Assembly: GCF_006345805.1 (NCBI RefSeq)
Contig: NC_043004.1
Location: 24,676,001 to 24,740,000 of the forward strand
DNA: 64,000 nucleotides
Reading direction: 5' to 3'
Source of the DNA: Octopus sinensis
Taxonomy: Eukaryota
The notes under the pieces were generated by a model. It was given only the letters and a program-made list of their open reading frames with translations. It did not search any database and was not told where the DNA came from. Position 1 is the first letter of the stretch. Each line of letters opens with the position of its first letter. The translations under genes and the position numbers were made by a program. This document shows, piece after piece, positions 19,925-39,365 of the stretch.

Positions 19925-20515
19925 ATGCGGTCACCAAGAAATATAATACAAAATAATTTATGTTTTCTCAGACAAAACATATCCGAACCTGATGTAAAAT
20001 TAATTAATGACAAGTTTCCTCAATTAAAAGAAACAGACGTTAATTTTCCAAATATTATGCGTTTTTTTATGGAGAAAAATGACGCGGATAGTTTTGATAA
20101 GCTTTTAGGATTTTTAGAAAAGGAATGCCTCAAAAAACATGTGGTACTGGCTTTGAAAAAAGATAGAAACGAATCAGAAGACACAGAGGCAGAGGACCAC
20201 ACTCAGATACAAACAAATATAAAGGAGCTGGATGTGAATTTACTCGGACGTATTCTACTGCGAGTTCTTGACGGATGGTTGCCAGTCGCTAAAGAGCTAG
20301 GAGTTACTGATCAACAAATTAAAAACTCCCGACGTGATTATTCCGATGATGAGTTGTGCAAGATAAACGTTTTTAACTGGTGGAGAAAAACAAACGGATT
20401 CCGTGAAAATGGGGTTGATTTTTTGCTGAATGTCCTTACAGAATACCCTGAATGTATTGTTGACTGCAGAAGTATGAGAGAGTTAATTAATTCAGTAAAC
20501 AGAAACGGAAACTAA
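19925..20515 (+). CDS. Death-fold adaptor-like protein: CARD-like N-terminus + C-terminal death domain (RAIDD/CRADD-like architecture), copy 1
   Basis: 196-aa non-repetitive ORF. Residues ~100-188 match the death-domain pattern (GWLPVAKELGVTDQQI...FNWWRK..G...VDFLLNVL). Residues 1-80 are helical and CARD-like (IIQNNLCFLRQNI...SFDKLLGFLEKE..KHVVLAL), followed by an acidic linker. It may be spliced at 20494/20495. Confidence 0.75.
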   Translation: MRSPRNIIQNNLCFLRQNISEPDVKLINDKFPQLKETDVNFPNIMRFFMEKNDADSFDKLLGFLEKECLKKHVVLALKKDRNESEDTEAEDHTQIQTNIKELDVNLLGRILLRVLDGWLPVAKELGVTDQQIKNSRRDYSDDELCKINVFNWWRKTNGFRENGVDFLLNVLTEYPECIVDCRSMRELINSVNRNGN

Positions 20516-20567
20516 ATAATAATGAACTGATTTTTTTTTTTTCTTTTTTGCGGTAAATCAACTCAAG

Positions 20568-20659
20568 ATAATGGACAGTCAACATCCATTGAAAAGGTTA
20601 CAAAAGCAATTAAAATTTTGGAAAAGAGAAAATATAGATAATAAATGGAAATTGACCAG
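20568..20659 (+). CDS. Candidate exon 2 of the death-fold gene
   Basis: Intron 20495-20567 has a GTAAAC donor, CTGAT branch-like site, poly-T tract and first AG at 20566-67. The exon is open in frame (IMDSQHPLKRLQKQLKFWKRENIDNKWKLT) and ends at donor CAG|GTCAGT. The duplicate is at 39416-39507. Confidence 0.45.
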
Positions 20660-22149
20660 GTCAGTGTGTTACATATATATTAGGCCTGAAATTTTGTTGA
20701 AGGCAATTAGTTGATTGAATGGACCTAACGATGATGATGATGATGATGACGCAAAGAAGCAGAAGAAATAATAGACACAAGGACAGCAACTTTAAGAAGT
20801 GCGAGTTAAACTTTCAACGTAAAGAACCGGAATGATCTGTCACAACTTGGGCTATTAAAAGGAACTCCATCTTAACTAATTCATGTCTATATATAACTAG
20901 CAGAAATACCCAGCGTTGCCCATTTTAAAGAACCTAAGGAAATTCAAGAATGCCTTTTAGATCTCTAAATAACATGAATCATGGACCATGCAGGCCTCAC
21001 CTCCTAGTAGCTGAGATACCAACTTTATATGTTAACTAGCAACTAAGCCCGATTTCACCCAGTCGATTTGGATGATGTGGTTGTAAAACCTGCTCTGTGT
21101 AAGCATTCGACTTGATTGGGTATGCTTATGTTAAAAAACAATTTTAGAATGACTTTTTTTCTGTCAAAACGCTGAAAATAACTGACCAACAAAAAAACAA
21201 CCAAGATTCAACCAAATCAAAAAATAAACCCAATTGCTAAGCAAACAAAGATTACCCATCCCACTTCCATTGTGCACACACACATTCACATACCCCCTTT
21301 TACATACACACACATATATTCACACAGTTGAAATGCTGTTTGATTTATTTTTTCAGCGTACAATTTTCATCATCCCACTACCAAGTATCACATCACCCCT
21401 TCCTTTCTCATTCAGAAACACAAGAGTATTATTATAGTAGATTATCTCGGTAACCATGGGAGCTATGAAAAAATACAAAGCCCAGCAACACCTCTGGATC
21501 ATTCTACACATCTGTGCAATTTTTCGTGCAATTCCACCCAGCCATTTGACCGTGAATCCCAAAATAAGAAAGTATTGCCCATGTCAAATTTATATATGTT
21601 TCCCATGTTATTGAAAATAATGAAATTCCTTTTAAATCTCTAAGTAAAATGAAACGTGGATTATGCAGTTCTCAACAGTAATTAGCTGAGGTACAAACTA
21701 TTAATGTCAATAACATTTTTTCTGGTGTTCTCACTGTTAAATTGTTAAAAACAAAAACAGATAGTTCTTTGTCTTTGCAGTTACCTTTATTTGTCAGTAA
21801 GTATTTGGAACACGTTGAACCTGAAAATGCATAAATTTGAGAAGAACCAGCCCTGCGGGCGCACCCCTCTAGTTAATAAAAATATTTAACAAAAATTCTA
21901 TCAGATGATGTCAGTATAAACACATGTATTGAAACAAATCCGGCAATCAATCACAGTTTTATTATCTAGAACTTTTAAATATACAATGTTTTGAGTGTGT
22001 CCTATGTAGAAATGAAAAGATTTTTGGGACTTTTAACATCCTACATATAATTGCCCATGAGAAAAGCAAAGTGAAGTCCAACAACCTTGAGAGACTGTAC
22101 TTGAGACTTGTTTATTAGATTTCTGCACCCCCCCATCATCCGAATTTGG

Positions 22150-22890
22150 ATCATAACTTTTAGAGAAATGGATATTTCTTAACGAAATTGTCTACAAATA
22201 TATACCTCGGATTATGTAGATTCCGAGCATATAGGATTTGGTGGTGGGGAACAATTGGGGCTTATTTTTGAAAACTATTCCCCACGCAGGAGTGTTTTGG
22301 AACAAGTCCATATTTGTTCCATTTTCTTTGTTGTGTGTTTGTGCATCAGTATATAACACTTAACTGTAGCTGTAAAATTTTGGGGGGGAATTGAAAATTG
22401 GCATGGGGAGCCCATTCATAGAAAATTTAATTAAAAAAATATCCGTTTTTCTGAAAGTTATGATCATCCAAAGTTGGTGGAACAGAAATCTGTAGTTATG
22501 CCGCTGGAGAAGAATATAAAAAATGAAAGTACTTTTAGAAATTCCTTTTTATCTGAAATAGTTACAACTGGATATTAAGTGTTAATAAGGTGAATTTTTC
22601 CAAAAATGTCCAAAATGCGTATTGGAAAATCAAGAAAAAGGTGTCTATATCCGTATGAAATTACCTTTTAAAATTCTTTAGACACACACATATTTCATTG
22701 CCTGCACAAAACAGAGAAAATGAAATAAATATGGATGACTTGTTCCAAAACATTCCCGAGTGCAGAACAGTTCTCAAAAATAACCCCCAATTGTTTTCTC
22801 CAAAAATCCCTATTTGCTCGGAATGTACATAGTTCGAGGTGTATTTGTAGACAATTTCATTAACAAATATCCATTTTCCTGAAAGTTAAG
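22150..22890. mobile_element. Foldback/non-autonomous DNA transposon with ~190-bp imperfect inverted arms
   Basis: 22155-22338 (TAACTTTTAGAGAAATGGATATTT...TTGGAACAAGTC) is reverse-complementary to 22705-22888. The duplicate is at ~40985-41718. Confidence 0.7.
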
Positions 22891-37253: not shown

Positions 37254-37580
37254 TATGACAAACAGTTTAAAGAACAATGAATCTGTGTAGGGACAACAAG
37301 TCGAGTGCAGGAGTTATTTGAAGATCACGTTAATTGTAATCTAATAAGGCCATGTTAAAGAAAATTTCTATATATTCAATACAGAAAATTGTAATCATAT
37401 TAATGAACTATAAACGAAGACAGGTGTTTTAATATTCTTAAATGACTACTTGACTATAATAATATGTACACCAACAACTTTACAGAGTATACTGGATGCA
37501 TTTTTGCAGTATTAGTCTGTGTATTTTTGTACGATAAAAGTTGACAGTGACTTCTAAGTTTCAGCTTACTGCCAGTTACG

Positions 37581-37841
37581 TATGTATATATATATATATA
37601 TGTATATATATATATATATATATATATATATGTATATATGTATATATATATATATATATATATATATATATGTATATATATATATATATATATATGTATA
37701 TATATATATATATATATATATATATGTATATATATATATATGTATATATATATATATATATATATATATATGTATATATATATATATATATATATATATA
37801 TATATATGTATATATATATATATATATATATATATATATAA
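37581..37841. repeat. (TA)n microsatellite at the duplication junction
   Basis: A TA array separates unit 1 from a 28-bp linker and unit 2. Confidence 0.95.
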
Positions 37842-38756
37842 ACGGGACCACGACAATAGACAAGTACCACAGTGAGTTTAGAAGCAATGAGGAACGGGAA
37901 ATTAAAGTTTCAGGAAAATAATTCGAGACTAAATCTTGAGACGATCGGCGGAAGTGAAGAAGAAAACAGGAAGTAAAAAAAGCGGAAGCGAAAGAGAGAG
38001 AAAAACAGAAAGTAAGACTACTAAGTTTTTTTCCGTAAGACGGATTGAAAAGTCGAATATAATTGACATCGTTGGTGGAATTCTGGATTAAGCACCCCGT
38101 ATAGGTACTACTTGAAAACAGTGGCCCCGGTGCGCGCATCCGCGCATCCACGCCAGCTAGTCGATCCTTACTTTGTGATTTGTGTTATTTACTTTGTTTT
38201 TACAAAAATTATTGGCAATCTTTCGTTTGTAGTAGCACGTTTCCGTCGATCGCCAAATTGATAAAAGTTTTTTACGGAAATCATCGACGGAAACGTGCTA
38301 CTACAAACGAAAGATCGCCTTGTGTCGTAACTTCGGTATAGGTACCGGATACATTTCAAGAAAGTGTTTTTTTTTTTTAATATATATATATGGGAGGTTA
38401 GGGTTAGGGCTAACCCTAACCTAGAGAAAAGGGTTTCTGTTATCTTCGGAAATGTAAAGAAAGCCACTTCCGGTACGAAACATCCGGTGATAATGTTGTC
38501 ATCACACAGAAATATTTTTCTAAAAGTTTTTTGCAACAAGTGAACAACAACTGGTCAGAAGACGACCGACATTCATAATTTAAATATAAAACCTTTCTTT
38601 CATGCGTTCAAATACATCCGAATCAATACTTGAAACCAGAAAAAAAGTTTTAATGATTTCTATAATCTAAGTTTTCATTAATTCAAGAGGTAAGAGAACG
38701 AAAATCAACTTTCTAACTTCCTGCTTTTTCGCTGTTTTATTACATGCACATATACA

Positions 38757-39365
38757 ATGCGGTCACCAAGAAATATAATACAAAATAATTTATGTTTTCT
38801 CAGACAAAACATATCCGAACCTGACGTAAAATCAATTCATGACAAGTTTCCTCAATTAAAAGAAACAGACGTTAATTTTCCAAATATTATGCGTTTTTTT
38901 ATGGAGAAAAATGACGCGGATAGTTTTGATGAGCTTTTAGGATTTTTAGAAAAGGAATGCCTCAAAAAACATGTGGTACTGGCTTTGAAAAAAGATAGAA
39001 ACGAATCAGAAGACACAGAGGCAGAGGACCACACTCAGATACAAATAAATATAAAGGGGCTGGATGTGAATTTACTCGGACGTATTCTACTGCGAGTTCT
39101 TGACGGATGGTTGCCAGTCGCTAAAGAGCTAGGAGTTACTGATGAAATTAAAAAGTCCCGACGTGATTATTCCGATGATGAGTTGTGCAAGATAAACGTT
39201 TTTAACTGGTGGAGAATAAGAAAAGGATTCGATAAAAATGGGGTTAAAGATTTGCTGAAGGCCCTTAGAAAATACCCTGAATGTATTGTTGACTGGAGAA
39301 GTATGAGAGAGTTAATTAATTCAGTAAATGTAATTCAAAACTCAACAGAAACGGAAACTAAATAA
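38757..39365 (+). CDS. Death-fold adaptor-like protein (CARD-like + death domain), copy 2
   Basis: 202-aa paralog of 19925-20515 with 19 amino-acid substitutions, a one-codon deletion and a 17-bp indel at the 3' end. Confidence 0.75.
   Translation: MRSPRNIIQNNLCFLRQNISEPDVKSIHDKFPQLKETDVNFPNIMRFFMEKNDADSFDELLGFLEKECLKKHVVLALKKDRNESEDTEAEDHTQIQINIKGLDVNLLGRILLRVLDGWLPVAKELGVTDEIKKSRRDYSDDELCKINVFNWWRIRKGFDKNGVKDLLKALRKYPECIVDWRSMRELINSVNVIQNSTETETK

What the first reader, a model, noticed from the sequence alone, without database searches (positions are those of the whole stretch)
19925..39365. Duplicated CARD-like/death-domain adaptor under apparent intense diversifying selection
Seen: hand alignment of 19925-20494 with 38757-39323 gives ~23 substitutions. 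Only one is synonymous (GAT/GAC, D23); the rest give 19 amino-acid changes, plus a one-codon indel. That is roughly 4% divergence. The adjacent ~4.5 kb of duplicated non-coding DNA shows only about ten substitutions, and ~1 kb of the ZNF exon shows one amino-acid change. Known: death-fold domains build signalling platforms (PIDDosome, Myddosome, DISC) and vertebrate adaptors such as RAIDD and FADD are usually conserved. Inference: this is a lineage-specific immune or cell-death adaptor family in an arms race. If the units are uncollapsed haplotypes, it is a hyperpolymorphic locus under balancing selection.
Basis: partly seen in the sequence, partly recalled or inferred. Interest (0 to 1): 0.9.

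Follow-up and report, generated by a model that had tools for sequence, protein, structure and literature searches.

The report
Hypervariable octopus cell-death adaptor gene pair
Two side-by-side copies of an octopus gene for a predicted cell-death adaptor protein differ almost only by amino-acid-changing letters crowded onto one predicted outer surface, which likely reflects selection for variety, probably driven by pathogens, in a gene type reported as conserved in other molluscs.

Summary
Observation confirmed. ORFs A (19925-20515) and B (38757-39365) lie in a direct ~18.8-kb tandem pair and differ by 23 substitutions (1 synonymous), against 0.21% in 8.4 kb of 3' flank; 15 fall within 80 bp. 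Pairwise omega is about 6 (LRT p about 0.025). Contigs of public runs hold both tract types, and one DNA-labelled run holds a third, mosaic type, so more than one locus is likely. All 14 further coding variants are nonsynonymous (36 of 37 overall), 23 of 34 residue changes alter charge, and core positions are mostly spared. The model is a CARD-like fold plus a death domain whose top match is RAIDD (Z 10.1). The variable patch is the H4-H5 loop and the outer face of helix 5. Seven further related ORFs sit on another contig; their CARDs also show omega above 1 in 4 of 5 pairs. Diversifying selection is well supported; the pathogen driver, partners and expression are untested. New variant of the CRADD/RAIDD-type adaptor.

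The parts
19035..37621 (+). Duplicated unit A (about 18.6 kb)
   Evidence: Self-alignment
37869..55677 (+). Duplicated unit B, direct orientation; many 1-nt indels from about 47500 to 52100
19925..20515 (+). ORF A, single open frame, 196 aa, CARD-like plus death domain
38757..39365 (+). ORF B, 202 aa; identical over 190 aa to NCBI LOC118764508 [Octopus sinensis] (P0001)
19925..20170 (+). Predicted CARD-like death fold of A (codons 1-82), short at the third helix
   Evidence: Model of B, VIA Z 8.8-9.2 to CED-3, caspase-9 and Apaf-1 CARDs; alignment
20210..20491 (+). Predicted death domain of A (codons 96-189)
   Evidence: VIA Z 10.1, rmsd 2.4, 89 aligned to 2of5_A; Pfam Death E 0.031, under cut-off
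39042..39320 (+). Predicted death domain of B (residues 96-188)
20388..20467 (+). Hypervariable tract in A, codons 155-181: end of H4, H4-H5 loop, outer face of H5, first residue of H6
39217..39296 (+). Hypervariable tract in B
39327..39343 (+). 17 nt present in B and in run X10, absent in A; changes the last residues
   Evidence: table 4
37577..37868 (.). Junction: about 265 bp (TA)n run plus 28 bp not shared with unit A
18995..19009 (.). Short (TA)n run just left of unit A
55640..55677 (.). (TA)n run at the right end of unit B
19035..19700 (+). Promoter-like region: CpG o/e 1.1-1.6, CGGAAG/CTTCCG motifs at 19115, 19149, 19635 (ETS-like; name recalled)
   Evidence: function inferred
33029..34987 (-). 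C2H2 zinc-finger exon carried in the unit (652 aa open frame in A; copy in B broken by 19 gaps); internal control

Best explanation
The window holds two tandem copies of a single-frame octopus gene predicted to encode a CARD-plus-death-domain adaptor of RAIDD/CRADD build, and their differences are almost all amino-acid changes packed on one predicted outer surface of the death domain, likely kept diverse by selection that is probably imposed by pathogen proteins. Shown: the duplication in the assembly, the excess and clustering of amino-acid changes, four tract types (A, B, a third in run X3, one in run X10) that are mosaics of each other. Predicted: two death folds; the tract is the H4-H5 loop and exposed face of H5. 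Inferred: the death domain would join an oligomeric platform and the CARD would recruit a CARD caspase, as RAIDD does; a partner that grips the H5 face selects charge-reversing escape alleles; recombination or conversion shuffles them; unequal exchange at the flanking (TA)n runs likely put two old divergent alleles on one chromosome (a heterogeneous duplication), which explains 19% difference in the tract beside 0.2% in the flank.
For: Tract: 0 synonymous of 21, P 0.002-0.005; charge changes in 23 of 34 residue changes against 41% expected, P 0.0014; net charge -1, +5, +1, +5. Hydrophobic-core columns vary at 3 of 50 against 24 of 138 others, p 0.035; no stop in any type seen. B is 4 nt from the organism-C type but 15 from A and 10 from the third type; site patterns AC|BD (4) and AD|BC (1) are incompatible with one tree. 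Three tract types in one run at depths 36.5, 28.9, 28.8. Model pLDDT 91; top match RAIDD DD. H5-H6 loop, H1-H2 and H3-H4 loops carry no variant; H5 is not named in the type I-III surfaces (PMC7156525, passages). C14 paralog CARDs: omega 4.0-9.3 with p under 0.05 in 4 of 5 pairs.
Against: No partner, pathogen or infection data; the driver is pure inference. A-B alone is only p 0.02-0.04 and was picked post hoc. The core-sparing test is not significant within the death domain alone (p 0.07 and 0.11), and conserved W181 is changed in A, in the third type and in one X10 allele. Full-length paralog pairs: omega above 1 in 7 of 8 but p under 0.05 only for A-B and L007-L008; pairs share sequences and show conversion; L003-L004 omega 0.7. 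Contigs keep complex bubbles and drop simple ones, so read-derived variants are biased towards the tract. That X3 is one diploid animal is assumed; depth is no copy number; X3 may be the assembly's own sample and X2 follows the same majority path, so neither is surely independent. X20 has no cover over the tract. No same-run control gene was laid.
Confidence: 0.55

Rival explanations
1. Selection is real but internal: the patch sets partner specificity among the host's own expanded death-fold proteins (paralog insulation, or a self/non-self-type matching), not escape from pathogens.
For: Six variable codons (155-157, 159-161) lie on H4 and the H4-H5 loop, one side of the type II interface; at least 9 related ORFs in G000; charge swings of 6 units could tune pairing.
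Against: The matching type II side (H5-H6 loop, codons 174-180) is invariant in all four types; six variable codons lie on H5, outside the listed interfaces; internal co-evolution rarely keeps several deep alleles segregating (general knowledge).
Confidence: 0.2
2. One hyperpolymorphic locus: units A and B are uncollapsed haplotypes and the third type comes from a pooled sample or an unassembled locus.
For: Unit A begins 730 bp after a 100-N gap; unit B is rich in 1-nt indels (71 indels in 29401-33952); flank divergence 0.2-0.9% is of allelic size; units are joined in a long (TA)n run.
Against: The gap is outside the pair, not between copies; three tract types at near-equal depth in one run, sum 94 against 46-56 for three other-locus contigs; a copy on one chromosome only would itself explain poor polishing. 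Selection stands under this reading too.
Confidence: 0.12
3. Relaxed constraint: a dispensable copy drifting neutrally, with a chance lack of synonymous changes.
For: CARD is short and misses the Pfam CARD model; W181 is changed repeatedly; C-terminal frameshift; no close orthologue found in other Octopus proteomes.
Against: Neutral drift gives omega 1 and a rate like the flank; observed 1 synonymous of 37, coding rate 19 times the 3' flank, charge bias, core spared, frame open in all types; an Argonauta protein groups with it at 100/99.
Confidence: 0.07
4. The tract was copied in by gene conversion from an unseen, more distant paralog evolving at dN/dS of 1 or less.
For: Tight 80-bp cluster; mosaic types show that exchange happens; the C14 paralogs show converted blocks (L006 and L008 identical over 45 codons).
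Against: No third close DNA copy among 40 scored of 449 candidates in G000; known paralogs are 23-27% identical; a neutrally diverged donor would bring about 5 synonymous changes in 21, none is seen; A, B and the third type each have private nonsynonymous alleles.
Confidence: 0.06

Closest known systems
RAIDD/CRADD (PIDDosome adaptor; PDB 2of5, 2o71)
   Same: About 200 aa, N-terminal CARD-like fold, C-terminal death domain, no catalytic part; top hit by structure (Z 10.1) and by family profile (E 4e-18).
   Different: 19% identity in the death domain; CARD shortened; coding region in one open frame; at least 9 related ORFs in the genome; omega well above 1 on a surface patch. Binding to caspase-2 or PIDD untested.
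Lophotrochozoan CRADD (PMC11463336, passages and section 10)
   Same: CARD plus DD activator proposed for mollusc CARD caspases; a cephalopod sequence is in their tree.
   Different: Described as one conserved activator with dN/dS 0.91; here expanded, on two contigs, with hypervariable copies. PMC9389742 (passages) even states that Cradd is absent from the squid and octopus genomes.
FADD
   Same: Two death folds, similar length; nearest Atlas clusters at 0.84 (lead only); best Foldseek row (E 0.25).
   Different: Paralogs L005-L008 pass the Pfam CARD cut-off, no DED hit in 8 proteins scanned; CARD matches (Z 8.8-9.2) lead DED matches (Z 7.0-8.0) by about 1.
Heterogeneous duplications such as mosquito ace-1 (PMC6121789, abstract)
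   Same: Two divergent alleles joined in tandem on one chromosome with near-identical flanks.
   Different: Here inferred from sequence only; no fitness data; the trait is unknown.

Membership tests
RAIDD/CRADD | C-terminal death domain | tested here: met
   VIA Z 10.1, rmsd 2.4, 89 aligned to RAIDD DD; Pfam Death E 0.031 in A, under cut-off, none in B; paralogs L005-L007 pass
RAIDD/CRADD | N-terminal domain is a CARD rather than DED or PYD | tested here: inconclusive
   Death fold is clear; CARDs Z 8.8-9.2, PYD 8.0-8.2, DED 7.0-8.0, gaps near 1 are ties; no Pfam CARD hit for A or B; 4 of 6 paralogs pass the CARD cut-off
RAIDD/CRADD | Two-domain adaptor of about 200 aa without catalytic domain | tested here: met
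   196 and 202 aa; model covers both domains and a linker
RAIDD/CRADD | Orthology to vertebrate CRADD | tested here: inconclusive
   Death-domain tree of 40 rows puts A and B with Argonauta P0018 (100/99) in a 22-row clade (98/98) holding proteins named CRADD in O. vulgaris relatives and O. bimaculoides; no vertebrate row, midpoint root. A Haliotis CARD-DD finds only the C14 cluster in G000
RAIDD/CRADD | CARD binds and activates caspase-2 | not tested
   No complex was predicted; bench test needed
RAIDD/CRADD | Death domain assembles with PIDD1 | tested here: inconclusive
   PF10461 search of G000 gave 0 matches with no working control; papers disagree on PIDD in cephalopods
FADD | N-terminal death effector domain | tested here: inconclusive
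   No Pfam DED hit in 8 proteins; DED rows rank under CARD rows by about 1 Z; not favoured
Locus under diversifying selection | dN/dS significantly above 1, concentrated at exposed sites | tested here: met
   pairwise and count tests only, no site model
Heterogeneous duplication | Two pre-existing alleles joined on one chromosome, single-copy chromosomes also present | tested here: inconclusive
   Three types at near-equal depth in X3, one long contig in X10; no phasing; an older duplication with flank homogenisation fits too

The most novel reading that the evidence does not exclude
Octopus CARD-DD adaptors are a polymorphic decoy or sensor family: one face of the death domain carries MHC-like, recombining alleles older than the split of sister species, and duplication at (TA)n runs is now fixing two alleles on one chromosome. 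A core death-platform adaptor would then double as a variable pathogen-recognition surface in an animal without adaptive immunity.
Probability: 0.2. Interest if true: 0.85.

Novelty: new variant of a known kind. Interest (0 to 1): 0.63.

Why it matters
Death-fold adaptors are usually treated as conserved wiring, and mollusc CRADD has been described as single and constrained, or as absent from octopus. A multi-copy family with a charge-flipping, recombining surface patch names a precise place (13 codons) where something pushes back on octopus cell-death signalling, which makes the partner findable by pull-down and the alleles testable against disease outcome in a farmed species. It may also be a natural case of a duplication capturing balanced alleles.

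Tried and rejected
Sequencing error as source of the tract: rejected, both types are in public contigs. RNA editing: rejected, all classes of change occur and the runs are DNA-labelled or DNA-sized. Another reading frame: rejected, changes fall 17/14/6 on codon positions 1/2/3 and no other long frame overlaps. Foldseek gave no match at E 0.001 or under, best row FADD DD E 0.25. Atlas hits are under 0.9, leads only. Close orthologues from other Octopus species: none in the 107-343 aa search (1 hit of 171 candidates) or the 30-110 aa search (0 of 3); longer forms were not searched. Expression: no RNA holder listed, no RNA run was laid; no evidence either way. X20 has no cover over 20270-20490 (80% of the run read); proves nothing. 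PIDD search inconclusive. Earlier scan findings: none. No complex prediction was run. A profile search of G000 for further family members could not be made, so the count of 9 is a lower bound. Not in print: searches (20 of 41 listed; 17 of 18; 0; 0; 6 of 6; 7 of 8; none of the 7 holds the LOC number) showed no study of this family's expansion or selection; subscription papers are not covered and the supplements of PMC11463336, which list its cephalopod CRADD, were not read.
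Full report
Check of the observation. Self-alignment shows a direct tandem pair, unit A 19035-37621 and unit B 37869-55677, each end at or beside a (TA)n run. The only gap (100 N, 18208-18307) is left of A, not between the units. The ORFs are 196 and 202 aa. They differ by 23 substitutions in 567 bases, 1 synonymous, 19 amino acids, one codon indel and a 17-nt indel at the 3' end. 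The 3' flank differs by 18 in 8429, the 5' flank by 5 in 888, the clean part of the zinc-finger exon by 1 in 1034, the right end of the unit by 23 in 2618. Fifteen of the 23 lie in 20388-20467 (1 of 100000 permutations). NG86 dN/dS is 5.6, one-sided p 0.038; outside the tract 1.75, not significant. A pairwise GY94 fit gives omega 6.2-6.4, LRT p 0.023-0.026.

Are the differences real, and are there two loci? I laid contigs of 4 of the 24 listed runs on 19650-20558. Run X3 (organism A, DNA by guess) has three separate contigs over the tract: A type (0 differences, depth 36.5), B type (15, depth 28.9) and a third type (13, depth 28.8). Three other-locus contigs in that run are 46-56 deep. If X3 is one diploid animal, three types need two loci, and the depths hint at three doses, i.e. 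a duplication on one chromosome; the tool warns that depth is no copy number, and the sample may be the assembly's own. X2 (organism B label, 76% read) has the B type; it follows the same majority path as X3 and may not be independent. X10 (organism C) has one 871-bp contig with 18 differences and the 17-nt insertion. X20 (organism B) has two types around codon 97 and no cover over the tract. Five of the 23 substitutions and the codon indel were not seen in any run; contigs drop simple variants. No third close copy is in G000 (40 of 449 candidates scored).

Replication of the selection signal. The runs add 14 coding alleles not present in B; all 14 change the amino acid (P 0.036 at kappa 1, 0.019 at kappa 2; 13 of 13 without the one allele under depth 5, P 0.045 and 0.025). 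In all, 36 of 37 alleles are nonsynonymous (P 0.0017 to 0.0004); one of the 36, at 20467, would be silent in the third type's codon. The tract has 0 synonymous of 21 (P 0.005 to 0.002). Of 34 residue changes 23 alter charge, against 41% expected (P 0.0014); net charge of codons 154-182 is -1 (A), +5 (B), +1 (third type), +5 (X10). B is 4 nt from the X10 type, 15 from A, 10 from the third type; patterns AC|BD at 4 sites and AD|BC at 1 site cannot sit on one tree, so exchange or repeated mutation has occurred (the letter at 20467 in the third and X10 types is inferred from contig ends and counts). Dropping of bubbles favours finding variants in the tract but does not favour nonsynonymous ones. 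No control gene was laid in the same runs.

What the protein is. Pfam gives only Death at E 0.031 for A. A protein search of G000 finds six related single-frame ORFs on C14 at 63.80-63.87 Mb and a seventh at 63.92 Mb; 4 of the six pass the CARD cut-off and 3 the Death cut-off. Copy B equals NCBI LOC118764508 [Octopus sinensis] over 190 aa. A model of B on a 40-row alignment has pLDDT 91. VIA-align ranks RAIDD DD first (Z 10.1, residues 96-188) and matches residues 1-82 to CED-3, caspase-9 and Apaf-1 CARDs (Z 8.8-9.2), with PYD and DED about 1 lower; Foldseek found nothing at E 0.001. The family profile's best solved sequence is CRADD, E 4e-18. In a death-domain tree A and B group with an Argonauta protein (47% identical; support 100/99) inside a clade with the C14 genes and their O. 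bimaculoides and Argonauta relatives; no vertebrate sequence was in it.

Where the variation sits. By the model's helices, the 27 codons with amino-acid variants are: CARD 6, linker 3, H1 1, H2 1, H2-H3 1, H3 2, end of H4 2, H4-H5 loop 4, H5 6, H6 1; H1-H2, H3-H4 and H5-H6 loops none. The six on H5 (165, 166, 169, 170, 172, 173) skip the hydrophobic 164, 167, 168, 171, i.e. they lie on the outer face (inferred from spacing and; no solvent access was computed). Core columns vary at 3 of 50 against 24 of 138 (p 0.035; within the death domain alone p 0.07). By PMC7156525 (passages) type II contacts join H4 and the H4-H5 loop to the H5-H6 loop and H6; H5 itself is not listed. So one type II side and a face outside the standard contacts vary, while the opposite type II side is nearly fixed. 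That points to a partner from outside the platform, and is the reason for preferring a pathogen driver.

The family. Among C14 genes, full-length omega is above 1 in 6 of 7 pairs, significant only for L007-L008 (p 0.039); CARD-only omega is 4.0-9.3 with p under 0.05 in 4 of 5 pairs; pairs are not independent and share converted blocks. Matching O. vulgaris proteins are 95-96% (two) and 88% (one) identical.

Mechanism. Shown: duplication in the assembly, excess and clustering of amino-acid change, mosaic types. Predicted: CARD-like plus death domain. Inferred from RAIDD: the death domain nucleates or joins an oligomer and the CARD recruits a CARD caspase (PMC11463336 proposes this for molluscs; passages and section 10). 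Inferred: a pathogen protein binding the H4-H5/H5 surface selects charge-changing alleles, kept by balancing selection and shuffled by recombination; unequal exchange at (TA)n runs joined two of them, as in heterogeneous duplications (PMC6121789, abstract). An older duplication whose flanks are homogenised by conversion fits equally. My odds: fold 0.97, diversifying selection 0.85, more than one locus 0.85, pathogen driver about 0.6, whole account 0.55.

Comparison with what is known. It works like RAIDD/CRADD by build; membership is not settled (CARD subtype, orthology and partners inconclusive or untested). PMC11463336 describes mollusc CRADD as one conserved gene (dN/dS 0.91) and found no PIDD; PMC9389742 (passages) reports Pidd1 in squid and states Cradd is absent from squid and octopus; PMC11431876 (passages) lists a CRADD-named protein in O. 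vulgaris skin mucus, without telling which gene. Six searches showed no study of the expansion or its selection; supplements were not read.

Verdict. A real feature: a new variant of the CRADD/RAIDD-type adaptor, expanded in octopods, with one surface under well-supported diversifying selection. Positive selection on invertebrate immune genes is common, a hypervariable face on a core death adaptor is not. Interest 0.63.

Noticed in passing
window 47500-52100: Unit B carries many 1-nt indels; its zinc-finger copy has 19 gaps against A. Looks like unpolished long-read error, as expected if the copy is on one chromosome only.
   Followed up: partly
G000 C14:63.80-63.92 Mb (L003-L008, L023): Cluster of seven related single-frame CARD-DD ORFs with high CARD omega and converted blocks; L008 loses the second half of its death domain.
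   Followed up: partly
L008 and L005, protein P0002: The NCBI model LOC118766027 reads as the N-terminal part of L008 joined to the C-terminal part of L005; possibly a model spliced across two tandem genes.
   Followed up: no
window 39320-39490: P0001 ends differently from the genomic frame of B; its last six residues match a frame at 39469, but I found no standard splice that gives the join. Unexplained.
   Followed up: partly
window 20465-20467, codon 181: A tryptophan conserved in 63% of homologues is changed to Cys in A and, by two different first-position letters, in the third type and one low-depth X10 allele.
   Followed up: partly
window 26340-26760, 30140-30653, 50848-51043: Units differ by insertions of about 420, 510 and 200 bp, and divergence varies from 0.1% to over 1% along the unit, as between haplotypes.
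   Followed up: no
window 28509-29306, 29744-31391, 36131-36969, 62150-63326: Broken mobile-element frames: LINE-type reverse transcriptase, LTR-retrotransposon-like and mariner-like pieces (names recalled from motifs, no call).
   Followed up: no
window 34961 / 52968: A 1-nt difference at the 5' end of the zinc-finger exon extends the frame in B; the gene's first exon and promoter were not located and may lie across the unit junction.
   Followed up: no
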